Counted from the stretch's first letter, positions 34,645 through 37,928 are shown. The stretch is DNA of 64,000 nucleotides from Ferruginibacter sp. (GCF_028288465.1 NZ_JAQBNR010000046.1:93219-157218), one strand, 5' to 3'. Program-made: numbers and translations. The notes: a model not told the origin generated them from the sequence alone.

Positions 34645-35777
34645 AACTCATTACCTGTAGCAAACTGCTTCAACGCCTCCCGATCCAGTTCAACACCCAA
34701 CCCATCGCCTTGCGGAACTTTGGCTGCGCCATTTTCAAAAACAATTCCATTCACGAGCAGATCGTCTACTCTGACCAGTTCGCCAAAAATATCAGAAGGG
34801 ATCGTACAGTTGATGCTGGCGGCAGCGATGTGCAATCCCATTGTTTCGGAAATGCCGAGATCAACTTCTGAACCACGCCAGCAAGACTTCCCTTCCAGGT
34901 TAGCAATTTCTGCCAACAGGATAGAATTGAATGCAGTGCCGTTAAAATTATAGTCATCCACAGCATCTGCACGAACAAAAGTGATGATATCGCGGATATC
35001 CTGTGTATAAGGCAATGATATATGCCGGATCATCGGCACACCCAAATGCTCTTTCAAATATTTAAACCCCTCCACATTCGCATGCAATATCGGGTCTTCC
35101 AACCCTAACATAATGTCACTATCAACACCTTCCATTAATTTCATGGTAGTAGCCACATCCGTCCAACGCTGGTTGGGATCAAGTATGATTTTTATTCCAT
35201 CACCACATTTTTGTTTGATGGCTTCGGTCCACAATCTTACCGGGTCTTCATCGGAGCATTTGAACTTAAAAACCTTGTGCCCTTTCTGCATGGCTTCAAA
35301 GGCTCTCTGCGCCGCATCTTCAGGTGTCCTTCTTCCCGTCCAGCCCATGCAATCTACCATTGTACGGTAAGCGCCACCTAACACCTGGTGTACCGGTACC
35401 TGCAATATTTTTCCGACCAGATCCAGCACGGCTGTTTCAAATCCTTCGTAAATCCGCTGATCAGTCAAGGGTAATTTTTTCCAGTTTAATTTCAACACGT
35501 CCTTTCCAGCGAAGGCTTTCATTGCTTCTTCTATCAGTGCTTTATTGGCACTGCGGTAAGTTTCACCAATGCCGGTCAAACCATTATTCAACGTTATTTC
35601 AATGATCCATTTAGGCTGATTGGCAAACTCCGTCCAGCTTTCCCCAGTCATGAATTTCTTTGCAAACTCGGTGTCTTTATCCAACACCATTTCCGAGTTA
35701 AGACTGCCGGGTTTTGCAGGCACCACCACTTCTGTCGCTTTGATGGATTGTATGATTGTATCGCTGATTCCACTCAT
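34629..35777 (-). CDS. Mandelate racemase/muconate-lactonizing-enzyme (enolase superfamily) protein
   Basis: GLTGIGE, DLVGKILQVPVHQVLGG, KFK, DPNQ, EDP, VPQGDGLGVELD. Confidence 0.9.
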   Translation of the reverse strand: MSGISDTIIQSIKATEVVVPAKPGSLNSEMVLDKDTEFAKKFMTGESWTEFANQPKWIIEITLNNGLTGIGETYRSANKALIEEAMKAFAGKDVLKLNWKKLPLTDQRIYEGFETAVLDLVGKILQVPVHQVLGGAYRTMVDCMGWTGRRTPEDAAQRAFEAMQKGHKVFKFKCSDEDPVRLWTEAIKQKCGDGIKIILDPNQRWTDVATTMKLMEGVDSDIMLGLEDPILHANVEGFKYLKEHLGVPMIRHISLPYTQDIRDIITFVRADAVDDYNFNGTAFNSILLAEIANLEGKSCWRGSEVDLGISETMGLHIAAASINCTIPSDIFGELVRVDDLLVNGIVFENGAAKVPQGDGLGVELDREALKQFATGNELVNGE

Positions 35778-36754
35778 GATTTCGGGGTATATTTTTCCGC
35801 CAGTTTGCGGATGTCGTAACTAAATTCAATGAATTGTTCTTCCCATTTTTCGGCTGATTCTTTTGTGTAGGGATAGAATCCCTGCGCATTGCTTACTCCT
35901 TTAGCGCCCGCTGCAACCAATGCTTCCATTGATGCAGGAGGAATAGGCGTATTGCTTAATTCAGGAAACAAGTCTTTCATTACTGTGAGATAAGCCGGGA
36001 TGCCGGTAAGATCCATAAAACGAAATGGCCCGGCAAAAGTAATCCAGTATCCAAGGTCGTTTCTTAAGGAACGATCCACATCTTCTACCGTGGCGTAGCC
36101 GTTTTCCACCAGGTTGAAAGCCTCTCTCAGCATGGCATACATAATCCGGTTGGTAATAAAACCACGGATATCTTTTTTTAGCAGTGATGGTTCTTTACCC
36201 CAGCCTTCTGCAATGGCAATGATTTTATATGCATAATCAATATCAGATTCCTTACCGCAGATCACTTCCATAAAACGGGTAATATGCGCCGGCTCTGCCC
36301 AGTGAATGCCGAGCAATCTTTCCGGGTGCTGCAGGCCTTCCTGCAAAATGGTTACGGGTATGGCCGAAGTGTTGCTTCCAATGATAGCAGTGGCCGATAC
36401 AACCGTTTCCAATTGCTGATAGAGTTGCTTTTTCTCCGCTACATTTTCAATGATCGTTTCAATAATTACTTCATGGCCTTTCAGCTGCGCTATGTCGTCG
36501 GTAATGATATGTCTTGCAATAATGACCTGTGGATCTTCTTTTAAAATACCTTCTGCATTCAGCTGTTGCAAAAATTCCAGTATGCGCTCCCTTGCCTCGG
36601 ATGCTGCTTCAATTCGTCTTACCAATGAAGTTACCGGATGACCTGCGGCAAGGATGCAGGTTGCAATACTGCAACCCATCAATCCAAGCCCAACCGTGCC
36701 TATGTTAATTTTTTTCTCCATTATTTTTTTATAAGGATGTGTCGTTGTCACCAT
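35774..36754 (-). CDS. 3-hydroxyacyl-CoA dehydrogenase family NAD-dependent dehydrogenase
   Basis: GLGLMG, E..IENVAEK, GSNTS, GIHWAEP, GFITNR, GPFRFMDLTG. Confidence 0.88.
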   Translation of the reverse strand: MVTTTHPYKKIMEKKINIGTVGLGLMGCSIATCILAAGHPVTSLVRRIEAASEARERILEFLQQLNAEGILKEDPQVIIARHIITDDIAQLKGHEVIIETIIENVAEKKQLYQQLETVVSATAIIGSNTSAIPVTILQEGLQHPERLLGIHWAEPAHITRFMEVICGKESDIDYAYKIIAIAEGWGKEPSLLKKDIRGFITNRIMYAMLREAFNLVENGYATVEDVDRSLRNDLGYWITFAGPFRFMDLTGIPAYLTVMKDLFPELSNTPIPPASMEALVAAGAKGVSNAQGFYPYTKESAEKWEEQFIEFSYDIRKLAEKYTPKS

Positions 36755-37134
36755 CAGCCAAGCACTGCAATGGCATCAATTTCTATTTTAATTCCATCAG
36801 CGAGTACAGACTGCACTGTTGTTCTTGCAGGGCGTATGCCTGTAAAGAATGTTGCATAGGCCGCGTTAAACCTGTCAAAATCTTCAATCTTTTCCAGGTG
36901 TACCGTGCATTTCATAATATCATCAATTGTTCCGCCCGCAGCTTCAATAATTTTTTTTATGTGAGATAAAGTGAGCAGCGTTTCTTCTTCAATCGTACCA
37001 CTGATTACTTCGCCGGTACTTAAATCCAATGGTCCCTGTCCGCTGATAAATAACATGCCGTTTTTTACTACCCCGGCAGAATATGCGCCGGTTGAAACCG
37101 CTTTGTCAGGATGTTTGATTTCAATTTTCCCCAT
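36754..37134 (-). CDS. RidA/YjgF/UK114 family protein
   Basis: GAYS..V, LFISGQGP, FNAAYATFF...PARTTV, IEIDAIA. Confidence 0.92.
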   Translation of the reverse strand: MGKIEIKHPDKAVSTGAYSAGVVKNGMLFISGQGPLDLSTGEVISGTIEEETLLTLSHIKKIIEAAGGTIDDIMKCTVHLEKIEDFDRFNAAYATFFTGIRPARTTVQSVLADGIKIEIDAIAVLG

Positions 37135-37136
37135 GA

Positions 37137-37928
37137 TTATGGTTTTAATTTTTTGATTTCCGGCCAGCTTTTAAACGACCCTATAAAATCCAGCAACGCT
37201 TTTGTTACGTGCTCAAATAAATACTGCCCTTTTTCTTTGGTGGCCAACTGAGGCTCACCACTACAACCATTGCCGGAAACAAACTCTGTTTGCTTCACCA
37301 CGGTTACACCCCTGTATGGTTCATCATCTTCCCAGGCAATATAACCATTACTTTCGGGCCTTGCGGCACGTTGTACTTTTTCCATCAGCACATTACCCGG
37401 AAAGAGATGCAGCATCAGGCTTGTTTCATATTCGCAGGCATGACTCAACGCAGGGCTTTGCATAGGCAGTTCACCGGCAAATGTTTTTCCGGCAAGTTCC
37501 CAATAAGTTGCCAGGGCAATCGTTGGATTGATGGTAGCATCGTACCGGTTGCTTAACACAGACAAAGCCTGTTTCAGCGGAGTGATATTGCCACCATGAC
37601 CGTTTAATAAAATAATTTTTGTAAAGCCACTCTTTATAACCGACTCAACTATTTCAATTACCAGTTGTGTATATAGTTGCGTCGATACACTCAGCGTGCC
37701 ACCAAATGCCTGGTGATGATGACTGGAGCCATAAGCAAGCGTGGGGCATAGGAGGATATCGTCTGGCAATTTACTTTCTGCGTAGGTGGCAACCGCTGTT
37801 ACAATATCTGTGTCAGTACTAACAGGCAAATGCAAACCATGCTGTTCTATGGCTCCCAATGGAAGCAATACAATTTTGTTGCTGGTTTCTTTATTCAACG
37901 ACGGATAAGTAGAGCCTGAAAAAAACAT
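37137..37928 (-). CDS. Creatininase family amidohydrolase
   Basis: LPLGAIEQHGLHLPVSTD, GSSHHH..FGGTLS, LNGHGGN, SHACEYETS. Confidence 0.92.
   Translation of the reverse strand: MFFSGSTYPSLNKETSNKIVLLPLGAIEQHGLHLPVSTDTDIVTAVATYAESKLPDDILLCPTLAYGSSHHHQAFGGTLSVSTQLYTQLVIEIVESVIKSGFTKIILLNGHGGNITPLKQALSVLSNRYDATINPTIALATYWELAGKTFAGELPMQSPALSHACEYETSLMLHLFPGNVLMEKVQRAARPESNGYIAWEDDEPYRGVTVVKQTEFVSGNGCSGEPQLATKEKGQYLFEHVTKALLDFIGSFKSWPEIKKLKP

What the first reader, a model, noticed from the sequence alone, without database searches (positions are those of the whole stretch)
35774..37928. Translationally coupled creatininase-RidA-dehydrogenase trio as a nitrogen-removal module
The three genes abut or overlap (2-nt gap, 1-nt overlap, then a 4-nt overlap into the enolase-family gene). 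An amidohydrolase, an NAD-dependent 3-hydroxy-acid-type dehydrogenase with an HW motif (GIHWAEP) and RidA together suggest N-deacylation, oxidation or elimination, and then imine/enamine hydrolysis. No CoA ligase, CoA transferase or thiolase is nearby, so the dehydrogenase probably acts on a free acid, as L-gulonate and carnitine 3-dehydrogenases of the same family do.
Basis: partly seen in the sequence, partly recalled or inferred. Interest (0 to 1): 0.55.

Follow-up and report, generated by a model that had tools for sequence, protein, structure and literature searches.

The report
Amino-sugar acid nitrogen-removal operon
The three genes are real and conserved, but they are part of a larger seven-gene operon that soil Bacteroidota most likely use to strip acetate and ammonia from an N-acetylated amino sugar, using different enzyme families from the one known pathway of this kind.

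Summary
A creatininase-family hydrolase (37137-37928), RidA (36754-37134) and a 3HCDH-family dehydrogenase (35774-36754) are packed on the minus strand. The 1-nt overlap depends on an unconserved upstream ATG.

The trio is colinear in 50 of 67 related loci with enough flank. The natural unit is larger: creatininase-RidA-dehydrogenase-enolase-EamA-DHDPS-SDR, complete in 48 of 67.

Creatininase and enolase genes co-occur perfectly (58 both, 9 neither). Four of the nine loci lacking both carry an M19 or D-aminoacylase/OngB-type amidase, three also with an OngC-type PLP dehydratase. Flanking genes are GH20, GH109, GH123 and GH27/36 hexosaminidases.

The closest known system is the Ong pathway for N-acetylglucosaminic acid (Jiang 2022): deacetylase, deaminating dehydratase, RidA. 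This operon looks like a non-orthologous version of it.

The dehydrogenase shares its HW motif with FHMPC dehydrogenase, which acts on a free acid, not with CoA enzymes. No CoA genes were seen nearby. Its exact step is unresolved. My best guess is that it oxidises the N-acetylhexosamine to the aldonic acid.

An earlier follow-up in this scan reached a similar Ong-like reading on other DNA. All evidence is comparative; nothing was assayed.

The parts
37137..37928 (-). Creatininase-family metal amidohydrolase (263 aa), proposed N-deacylase of the amino-sugar acid or of its dehydrated enamide
   Evidence: Pfam PF02633 at 217.5 bits. It falls below the curated cut-offs for creatininase, MftE, IolN and ArfB. 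The motifs EQHG.H, TD, LLNGHGGN and SHACEYETS are invariant in 64 orthologues. It co-occurs perfectly with the enolase gene.
36754..37134 (-). RidA-type imine/enamine deaminase (126 aa), counterpart of OngD
   Evidence: Pfam PF01042 at 97.3 bits. TIGR00004 scores 100 bits against a cut-off of 106.25. PARTTVQ, with the carboxylate-binding Arg, and EIDA are invariant in 53 orthologues. The gene is absent from 8 otherwise complete loci.
35774..36754 (-). 3HCDH-family NAD dehydrogenase of an 'HWxEP' subfamily (326 aa as the longest ORF, probably 315 aa from 36721). Step unresolved; proposed N-acetylhexosamine to aldonic acid
   Evidence: 3HCDH_N and 3HCDH domains. No NCBIfam equivalog cut-off is reached. 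The best solved relative is FHMPC dehydrogenase 4om8 at 7e-46, which shares G[IM]HW..P.HI, whereas a CoA enzyme shows HFFNP. The motif is invariant in 79 orthologues.
34629..35777 (-). Enolase-superfamily enzyme (382 aa), proposed beta-eliminating (deaminating) dehydratase; functional partner of the creatininase gene
   Evidence: MR_MLE_C at 78.3 bits. The best PDB match is the N-succinyl-amino-acid racemase 2p88 at 1.4e-23. KxK, Asp and Glu are kept, the third ligand position is His, and the strand-6 Lys is replaced. These features are invariant in 58 orthologues. An ATGA overlap with the dehydrogenase occurs in 38 of 57 loci.
33532..34467 (-). EamA/DMT inner-membrane transporter (311 aa), proposed importer of the monomer
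   Evidence: Pfam EamA at 132 bits. Present in 68 of 80 loci.
32586..33521 (-). DHDPS-family Schiff-base enzyme (311 aa) acting on the 2-keto-3-deoxy acid product
   Evidence: Pfam DHDPS at 91 bits. The best PDB matches are the L-2-keto-3-deoxyarabonate dehydratases 7c0c and 3fkk at about 1e-26, well ahead of aldolases and synthases. Present in 66 of 80 loci.
31795..32538 (-). SDR oxidoreductase (247 aa)
   Evidence: Pfam adh_short. Present in 54 of 80 loci. It lies next to the FAH gene, upstream of it, in the 10 loci where both were called.
30895..31755 (-). FAH-family hydrolase (286 aa), last gene of the operon in this genome
   Evidence: Pfam FAA_hydrolase at 245 bits. The best NCBIfam match is 2,4-didehydro-3-deoxy-L-rhamnonate hydrolase at 208.8 bits, below its cut-off of 500. 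Found in only 10 of 80 loci.

Best explanation
The trio is the front of a cytoplasmic operon (creatininase family, RidA, 3HCDH family, enolase family, EamA, DHDPS family, SDR, and FAH in this genome). The operon catabolises an N-acetylated hexosamine released by periplasmic hexosaminidase-type enzymes. It works like the Ong pathway for N-acetylglucosaminic acid but uses unrelated enzymes.

Proposed route:
1. EamA imports the monomer.
2. The HW-type dehydrogenase oxidises the N-acetylhexosamine at C1 with NAD+ to the N-acetylhexosaminic acid, which is chemically an N-acetyl-D-amino acid. This step is inferred and is the weakest, at about 0.4.
3. The creatininase-family enzyme removes acetate, and the enolase-family enzyme abstracts the alpha proton and eliminates the 3-OH. 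The order of these two steps is not settled.
4. RidA hydrolyses the resulting 2-amino-enoate/2-imino acid to ammonia and a 2-keto-3-deoxy-hexonate.
5. The DHDPS-family enzyme, with SDR and FAH where present, carries that product toward pyruvate-level metabolites.

Shown here: the family assignments, the conservation, the co-variation and the gene contexts. Inferred: every catalytic step.
For: - Conservation. All seven genes are present in 48 of 67 loci with enough flank, across Chitinophagaceae, Cytophagales and Pedobacter. Homologous sets occur in a different gene order in an Acidobacteriota locus (L079) and in higher-GC metagenome contigs.
- Glycan context. GH20 is present in 37 of 67 loci and GH109 in 36. 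GH27, GH36 and GH123 occur in others, with SusC/SusD. NagA- and NagB-like genes occur in 6 of the 80 loci.
- Non-orthologous displacement. Creatininase and enolase genes are either both present (58 loci) or both absent (9 loci). Four of the nine loci lacking both carry Peptidase_M19 or a D-aminoacylase, and three of those also carry a fold-type III D-Ser-dehydratase-like gene, still next to RidA and the dehydrogenase. The D-aminoacylase of L078 matches PpOngB (9kb1) at 7.6e-64.
- Known analogue. In the Ong pathway OngB deacetylates GlcNAc1A, OngC deaminates GlcN1A to KDG and NH3, and the RidA protein OngD is essential in vivo (PMC9537276).
- RidA. It keeps the carboxylate-binding Arg, so a 2-imino acid substrate fits.
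- Enolase. It keeps KxK and two metal ligands but lacks the second Lys base needed by racemases.
- Dehydrogenase. It shares its active-site motif with FHMPC dehydrogenase, which oxidises an aldehyde on a free acid (established knowledge). No curated CoA-enzyme model reaches its cut-off. It is the only oxidoreductase family identified in the M19/D-aminoacylase-type loci L076, L072 and L078 among the genes scanned, and those loci encode exo-hexosaminidases but no source of the aldonic acid. Several small ORFs there have no family match.
- Paralogues. Dehydrogenase paralogues at 35-55% identity again sit next to M19, RidA or class-III aminotransferase genes.
Against: - No enzyme was assayed. Substrate identity (GalNAc, GlcNAc or another amino sugar) is inferred only from the neighbouring GH families.
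- No 3HCDH-family enzyme is known to oxidise a sugar anomeric carbon. SDR or GFO/IDH/MocA genes in many loci could do that step instead.
- No enolase-superfamily member is known to act on 2-amino- or 2-acetamido-aldonates. The His at the third metal-ligand position is atypical.
- The DHDPS-family protein resembles a dehydratase (L-KDA dehydratase) more than an aldolase, so the downstream chemistry is unclear.
- A few loci (L072, L060, L061) have RidA and/or the dehydrogenase but no recognisable beta-eliminating enzyme nearby.
- In this genome the flanking glycosidases are an unnamed family, not GH20 or GH109.
- The loci are related, so the counts are not independent events.
Confidence: 0.6

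Rival explanations
1. Same Ong-like pathway, but the dehydrogenase acts downstream rather than at C1. It would oxidise an aldehyde or hydroxyl on the product of the DHDPS-family enzyme (glyceraldehyde, or an alpha-ketoglutarate-semialdehyde-like compound), or the 4-OH of the 2-keto-3-deoxy acid. The aldonic acid would then be made by the SDR, by a GFO-family enzyme, or outside the cell.
For: The dehydrogenase and DHDPS genes are the most persistent pair. In L074 and L049 they are the only operon genes detected. The DHDPS protein is most like L-KDA dehydratase, whose product is an aldehyde that needs a dehydrogenase, and no ALDH-family gene was seen in the loci scanned. The closest characterised relative, FHMPC dehydrogenase, oxidises an aldehyde (established knowledge). 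SDRs that oxidise N-acylmannosamine at C1 are known (recalled from memory, not tested).
Against: The Acidobacteriota loci L077 and L078, and also L091, have the dehydrogenase but no DHDPS gene within 10 kb. Its tightest conserved coupling is to the enolase and EamA genes.
Confidence: 0.22
2. One reading: the trio alone removes nitrogen. The amidase deacylates, the dehydrogenase oxidises the amino compound (directly to an imine, or at the 3-OH followed by tautomerisation), and RidA hydrolyses the imine. The enolase would do something else.
For: An amidase of some family, RidA and an HW-type dehydrogenase recur together in loci that lack a recognisable dehydratase (L072, L060, L090). RidA and the dehydrogenase are adjacent in most loci.
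Against: Creatininase co-varies perfectly with the enolase. In three of the nine loci lacking the pair it is replaced by an amidase together with a PLP dehydratase of the type shown to deaminate GlcN1A. Amine oxidation is unknown in the 3HCDH family. RidA is dispensable in 8 loci.
Confidence: 0.08
3. Catabolism of a D-amino-acid peptide or N-acyl amino acid, for example cell-wall peptides. The creatininase-family protein would be an MftE-like peptidase, the enolase a dipeptide or N-acyl-amino-acid epimerase, and RidA would serve a D-Ser/D-Thr dehydratase encoded elsewhere.
For: The best NCBIfam match of the creatininase protein is MftE (153 bits). The best PDB match of the enolase is an N-succinyl-amino-acid racemase. 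M19 dipeptidase and D-Ser-dehydratase-like genes also occur as a pair without the dehydrogenase in this same genome.
Against: The MftE score is below its cut-off of 172. The enolase lacks the second Lys base that racemases and epimerases require, and this is invariant in 58 orthologues. The contexts are hexosaminidase PULs, with no peptide transporters or peptidases.
Confidence: 0.05
4. The dehydrogenase is an ordinary 3-hydroxyacyl-CoA dehydrogenase, and its position in the operon is incidental.
For: The Pfam domains are those of 3-hydroxyacyl-CoA dehydrogenases, and public records name it 3-hydroxybutyryl-CoA dehydrogenase.
Against: Every curated CoA-enzyme model is far below its cut-off. 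The active-site motif is HWxEP, not HFFNP. No thiolase, hydratase or CoA ligase was seen in the operon neighbourhoods scanned across the 80 loci. The gene is colinear with the sugar operon across phyla.
Confidence: 0.02

Closest known systems
Ong cluster for oxidised chitin (GlcNAc1A) utilisation, Pseudoalteromonas prydzensis ACAM 620 (Jiang et al. 2022, PMC9537276; OngB structure in PMC12017989)
   Same: Same logic. A periplasmic exo-hexosaminidase and an inner-membrane importer feed a cytoplasmic N-deacetylase, then a deaminating beta-elimination to a 2-keto-3-deoxy-hexonate plus NH3, with a RidA-family protein in the operon. Relatives of this operon in Acidobacteriota and Chitinophaga carry OngB-type or M19 amidases and OngC-type PLP enzymes in the same slots.
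   Different: Here the amidase is creatininase-family rather than a D-aminoacylase. The eliminating enzyme is enolase-superfamily rather than PLP-dependent. The transporter is EamA rather than SSS. There is no KDG kinase; a DHDPS-family enzyme, an SDR and an FAH take its place. An extra HW-type 3HCDH dehydrogenase is present. The host is Bacteroidota, and the paper found Ong clusters only in Gammaproteobacteria and one Betaproteobacterium. The neighbouring GH families point to GalNAc as much as to GlcNAc.
5-formyl-3-hydroxy-2-methylpyridine-4-carboxylate (FHMPC) 5-dehydrogenase, Mesorhizobium loti, PDB 4om8
   Same: It is the closest solved relative of the dehydrogenase (7e-46). The two share the SxTS, G[IM]HW..P.HI and NR..YA.LREA motifs. 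It acts on a free carboxylic acid, not a CoA ester (established knowledge).
   Different: The NCBIfam FHMPC_DH model scores 193.8 bits against a cut-off of 500, so this protein is not an orthologue. The context is a sugar PUL, not vitamin B6 degradation.
Creatininase-fold amidohydrolases (creatinine amidohydrolase, MftE, ArfB deformylase, IolN)
   Same: Same fold family and conserved metal-site motifs. ArfB gives a precedent for removal of an N-formyl group by this fold (established knowledge).
   Different: The protein is below the curated cut-off of all four characterised equivalogs. No member is known to act on amino-sugar acids.
Non-phosphorylative sugar-acid routes (Weimberg-type L-KDA dehydratase; L-fucose/L-rhamnose SDR plus FAH route)
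   Same: The tail of the operon resembles them. The DHDPS protein is most like L-KDA dehydratase. The FAH is most like 2,4-didehydro-3-deoxy-L-rhamnonate hydrolase and is preceded by an SDR.
   Different: No curated model reaches its cut-off, no aldehyde dehydrogenase is present, and the upstream half of the operon deals with an amine.

Membership tests
Creatininase family (Pfam PF02633) | Full-length match above the Pfam gathering score | tested here: met
   217.5 bits against 31.3, covering profile positions 6-238 of 238.
Creatininase family (Pfam PF02633) | Conserved metal-site motifs (E-x-H, D, GHGGN, H..E.E) | tested here: met
   EQHG.H, TD, LLNGHGGN and SHACEYETS are invariant in 64 orthologues. 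Assigning them to the metal site rests on family knowledge, not on a structure made here.
Creatinine amidohydrolase proper (TIGR04448) and MftE (TIGR03964) | Score above the curated equivalog cut-off | tested here: not met
   114.8 against 235 for creatininase, and 153.4 against 172 for MftE.
RidA subfamily of the Rid family | Pfam Ribonuc_L-PSP match and the TIGR00004 subfamily cut-off | tested here: inconclusive
   Pfam scores 97.3 against 27.3, which is met. TIGR00004 scores 100 against 106.25, just below the cut-off.
RidA subfamily of the Rid family | Carboxylate-binding Arg (Arg105 equivalent) needed for 2-imino-acid deaminase activity | tested here: met
   The PARTTVQ motif is invariant in 53 orthologues. 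The role of the Arg comes from established knowledge.
3-hydroxyacyl-CoA dehydrogenase family (Pfam 3HCDH_N plus 3HCDH) | Both domains above the gathering score, with the catalytic Ser/His/Glu positions present | tested here: met
   133 and 68.4 bits. SNTS, GIHW and EVI align with the corresponding residues of 4om8 and an HBD.
CoA-dependent 3-hydroxyacyl/3-hydroxybutyryl-CoA dehydrogenases (NCBIfam equivalogs) | Score above the curated cut-off; HFFNP-type active-site motif | tested here: not met
   The best score is 199 against 508 (PRK08268), and all 21 models are below their cut-offs. The motif is HWAEP, not HFFNP. Actual CoA use cannot be tested here.
FHMPC dehydrogenase (NF042925) | Score above the equivalog cut-off | tested here: not met
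   193.8 against 500. It is the nearest relative only.
Ong (GlcNAc1A) utilisation cluster | OngB-type D-aminoacylase deacetylase and OngC-type fold-type III PLP deaminase in the cluster | tested here: not met
   Neither is in the window operon. Both types occur in the relatives L076, L077 and L078.
Ong (GlcNAc1A) utilisation cluster | RidA-family gene (OngD) in the operon | tested here: met
   RidA lies at 36754-37134. OngD is described in PMC9537276.
Ong (GlcNAc1A) utilisation cluster | Conversion of N-acetylhexosaminic acid to a 2-keto-3-deoxy-hexonate, acetate and NH3 | not testable with these tools
   This needs enzyme assays.
Enolase superfamily, MLE-subgroup racemases/epimerases | KxK on strand 2 and a second Lys base on strand 6 | tested here: not met
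   KFK is present. The strand-6 positions read Y and N where 2p88 has K and K, and this is invariant in 58 orthologues.

The most novel reading that the evidence does not exclude
A complete, non-phosphorylative oxidative route for N-acetylhexosamine (probably GalNAc) in soil Bacteroidota, in which three superfamilies take on unprecedented reactions. A 3HCDH-family enzyme oxidises the sugar at C1. An enolase-superfamily enzyme dehydrates the N-acetylhexosaminate to an enamide. A creatininase-fold enzyme hydrolyses that enamide. RidA finishes the deamination.
Probability: 0.25. Interest if true: 0.75.

Novelty: new variant of a known kind. Interest (0 to 1): 0.6.

Why it matters
Amino sugars are a large pool of carbon and nitrogen in soil, in fungal and bacterial cell walls and in exopolysaccharides. 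The textbook routes phosphorylate them first. The only described route that treats an oxidised amino sugar as a D-amino acid is Ong (2022), and it is known only from Gammaproteobacteria.

This operon would extend that logic to Bacteroidota and some Acidobacteriota. It would give testable first functions to a creatininase-fold clade, an atypical enolase-superfamily clade and an HW-type 3HCDH clade that public records name 3-hydroxybutyryl-CoA dehydrogenase. It would also suggest a substrate class for the unnamed glycosidase-like family next to it in this genome. The perfect co-variation of the creatininase and enolase genes, and their replacement by amidase plus PLP dehydratase, is a clean case of non-orthologous displacement that can guide assays.

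Tried and rejected
Contexts came from the search for related loci, the genome search and my own ORF and BLAST scripts instead.
- Literature searches for a creatininase/RidA/enolase combination, for galactosaminate or N-acetylhexosaminate catabolism, for N-acetylhexosamine dehydrogenases, and for creatininase in PULs found nothing relevant. Only the Ong papers were relevant.
- A 301-genome sample of Acidobacteriota found the orthologue only in the genome already in hand, so it gave no extra contexts.
- I looked for fused forms. Two metagenomic gene calls (P0122, P0124) read as dehydrogenase-enolase fusions. The three closest metagenome loci have two separate ORFs with an ATGA overlap. The fusions may be frameshift artefacts, and I give them little weight.
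- I considered hydroxyproline-type (pyrroline carboxylate deaminase) and sialic-acid-type (NanA) readings of the DHDPS gene. I dropped them because its best relatives are L-KDA dehydratases and the context is hexosaminidases.
- The conserved neighbour c7 (about 362 aa) has no significant match in Pfam, NCBIfam or PDB sequences.
- No structures were predicted. I judged that a model would not resolve substrate choice.

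
Full report
**What is there**

The minus strand between 30895 and 37928 carries eight co-oriented ORFs. By Pfam they are:
- creatininase family, 37137-37928
- RidA, 36754-37134
- 3HCDH_N plus 3HCDH, 35774-36754
- enolase superfamily (MR_MLE), 34629-35777
- EamA transporter, 33532-34467
- DHDPS family, 32586-33521
- SDR, 31795-32538
- FAH hydrolase, 30895-31755

An AraC-type regulator (29502-30383, plus strand) and uxuA follow. Upstream lie three roughly 700-aa paralogues with no Pfam match. 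The rest of the window has SusC/SusD, GH92, GH43 and a T9SS-tagged protein, so the host is a Bacteroidota member. The closest public genome is Ferruginibacter paludis, at 97% identity for the dehydrogenase.

The 1-nt overlap between RidA and the dehydrogenase depends on an upstream ATG. The public gene model (315 aa) and the orthologue alignments do not use that ATG.

**Is the trio conserved?**

A scan of one genome per species returned 80 loci with an orthologue of the dehydrogenase at 60-97% identity. They come from Chitinophagaceae, Cytophagales (Runella, Dyadobacter, Spirosoma, Larkinella, Arsenicibacter), Pedobacter heparinus and a few Acidobacteriota. tblastn of the window proteins against these loci gave the following counts for the 67 loci with at least 3 kb on both sides:
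- creatininase-RidA-dehydrogenase is colinear in 50
- all seven genes from creatininase to SDR are present in 48
- RidA is missing from 8 otherwise complete loci
- FAH is present in only 10 of the 80 loci, next to the SDR gene and downstream of it

The conserved translational overlaps are dehydrogenase to enolase (ATGA in 38 of 57) and enolase to EamA (-4 in 33 of 56). The two junctions inside the trio are short but variable.

The operon is an accessory trait. In an even sample of 401 Bacteroidota genomes, only 7 carried any HW-type dehydrogenase and 3 carried matches at 60% identity or more, counting the window genome. Four genomes of the same genus lack it.

**The key comparative result**

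Creatininase and enolase genes co-vary perfectly: 58 loci have both, 9 have neither, and none has only one.

The loci lacking both show what can take their place:
- L076 (Chitinophaga ginsengisegetis) has Peptidase_M19 and a fold-type III PLP D-Ser-dehydratase-like gene immediately upstream of RidA-dehydrogenase-EamA-DHDPS.
- L072 has the M19 gene.
- The Acidobacteriota loci L077 and L078 have IclR, dehydrogenase, RidA, an Amidohydro_3 protein, the PLP dehydratase type and GH123.

The L078 amidohydrolase matches D-aminoacylases at 1e-78 and PpOngB (9kb1) at 7.6e-64.

Paralogues of the dehydrogenase (35-55% identity) in three further genomes again sit beside M19, RidA, class-III aminotransferase or PLP-dehydratase genes. 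L060 has an M20 amidase near RidA and the dehydrogenase.

**Glycan context**

In Cytophagales the operon lies inside a PUL. GntR, SusC and SusD are upstream. GH20, an unnamed 362-aa protein and GH109 are downstream. A DegT aminotransferase and a GFO oxidoreductase are transcribed divergently. Other lineages carry GH27, GH36-like, GH123, NagA-like and NagB-like genes, and a neutral-ceramidase-like amidase. In 4 of the 67 loci (5 of all 80) the unnamed glycosidase-like family seen in this window is present. Fifty-one of the 67 loci have at least one of these glycosidase families within 10 kb. These are hexosaminidase families, and several are specific for GalNAc (established knowledge).

**Closest known system**

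A literature search led to the Ong cluster of Pseudoalteromonas prydzensis (PMC9537276). There, GlcNAc1A released by a GH20 enzyme is imported. OngB, a D-aminoacylase-family enzyme, deacetylates it. OngC, a fold-type III PLP enzyme, deaminates the product to KDG and NH3. The RidA protein OngD is essential in vivo but has no assigned role.

The authors found Ong clusters only in Gammaproteobacteria and one Betaproteobacterium. The library held no paper describing a creatininase/enolase version.

The Acidobacteriota and Chitinophaga loci above are Ong-like sets with the dehydrogenase added. The window operon has the same slots filled by unrelated folds.

**Reading of the individual proteins**

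- Creatininase-family protein. It keeps the family's conserved metal-site motifs in all 64 orthologues. It is below the curated cut-offs for creatininase, MftE, IolN and ArfB. It is therefore an uncharacterised clade, and I read it as the N-deacylase.
- RidA. It keeps the Arg that binds an alpha-carboxylate, which fits a 2-imino acid substrate.
- Enolase-family protein. It aligns best to an N-succinyl-amino-acid racemase (2p88). It keeps KxK, Asp and Glu, has His at the third ligand position, and lacks the strand-6 Lys. All of this is invariant in 58 orthologues. It therefore cannot be a two-base racemase, but it could be a one-base dehydratase. Whether it acts on the free or the N-acetylated acid cannot be decided here. 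Its nearest relatives bind N-acyl amino acids.
- Dehydrogenase. Its closest solved relative is FHMPC dehydrogenase (4om8, 7e-46). They share G[IM]HW..P.HI, where the CoA enzyme aligned alongside has HFFNP. The motif is invariant in 79 orthologues and kept in four of the five paralogues checked. No curated CoA-enzyme model reaches its cut-off. No thiolase, hydratase or CoA ligase was seen next to the operon in the loci scanned.

**Which step does the dehydrogenase catalyse?**

This is the weak point. The Ong organisms obtain the aldonic acid from an extracellular LPMO. These operons encode exo-hexosaminidases, so something must oxidise C1 before an N-acyl-D-amino-acid amidase and an alpha-proton-abstracting or PLP dehydratase can act.

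In L076, L072 and L078 the dehydrogenase is the only oxidoreductase family identified among the genes scanned. Its tightest coupling is to the enolase and the transporter. I therefore favour N-acetylhexosamine 1-oxidation, at about 0.4.

There are arguments against. SDR or GFO genes in many loci could do this step. The DHDPS protein is most like L-KDA dehydratase (7c0c and 3fkk, about 1e-26), whose product would need a dehydrogenase. The dehydrogenase and DHDPS genes are the most persistent pair. A downstream role is therefore a serious rival.

Two metagenomic gene calls look like dehydrogenase-enolase fusions. The nearest metagenome loci have separate, overlapping genes, so I do not rely on the fusions.

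**Verdict**

It draws the module boundary in the wrong place, because the eliminating enzyme is the adjacent enolase-family gene and the working unit is the seven-gene operon.
- The system is best described as a non-orthologous variant of the Ong pathway with an added dehydrogenase and a non-phosphorylative tail.
- An earlier follow-up in this scan reached a similar Ong-like reading for an operon in a marine Cyclobacteriaceae genome (e1-2944763). I had reached the Ong comparison independently beforehand.
- All functional statements are inferences from family membership and gene context. No step has been assayed.

Noticed in passing
L004:17236-18348 (Runella zeae); also L076:6018-7199: A protein of about 362 aa ('c7') is conserved in 38 of the 80 loci. 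It is usually found between GH20 and GH109, or directly upstream of the dehydrogenase. It has no significant match in Pfam, NCBIfam or PDB sequences. It is a candidate unknown component of the same pathway.
   Followed up: partly
window 38114-47164; L001, L002, L003, L019, L071: The unnamed 700-aa glycosidase-like family upstream of the operon co-occurs with the operon in five loci. In other lineages GH20, GH109 or GH27 are found with the operon instead. This suggests the family acts on hexosamine-containing glycans.
   Followed up: partly
P0122 (722 aa) and P0124 (622 aa), metagenomic proteins: These gene calls join a full HW-type dehydrogenase to a full orthologue of the enolase-family protein through a linker of about 20 residues. 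They could be real fusions or frameshift artefacts at the usual ATGA overlap.
   Followed up: partly
G000 contig C84:91768-92706 (L087): The window's genome carries a second HW-type dehydrogenase (54% identity) next to a YARHG-domain gene, with a LacI-type regulator about 1.3 kb away. No amidase or RidA was recognised nearby.
   Followed up: partly
G000 contig C3:2188-4998 (L092): The same genome also has a Peptidase_M19 gene (59% identity to the L076 one) and a PLP D-Ser-dehydratase-like gene (51%), separated by a 185-aa ORF. No HW-type dehydrogenase matched on that contig. This may be a second, Ong-type or D-amino-acid module.
   Followed up: partly
window 34468-34628: There is a 161-nt gap between the enolase-family gene and EamA in this genome. 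These two genes overlap by 4 nt in 33 of 56 related loci. The cause could be an insertion or an internal promoter; it was not examined.
   Followed up: no
L085 (Pedobacter heparinus contig C28) and L090: Two HW-type dehydrogenase paralogues lie close together, adjacent in L090 and separated by a class-III aminotransferase in L085. M19 and RidA are present in both loci, and a ceramidase-like amidase in L085. These look like related pathways for other amino sugars, possibly diamino sugars.
   Followed up: partly
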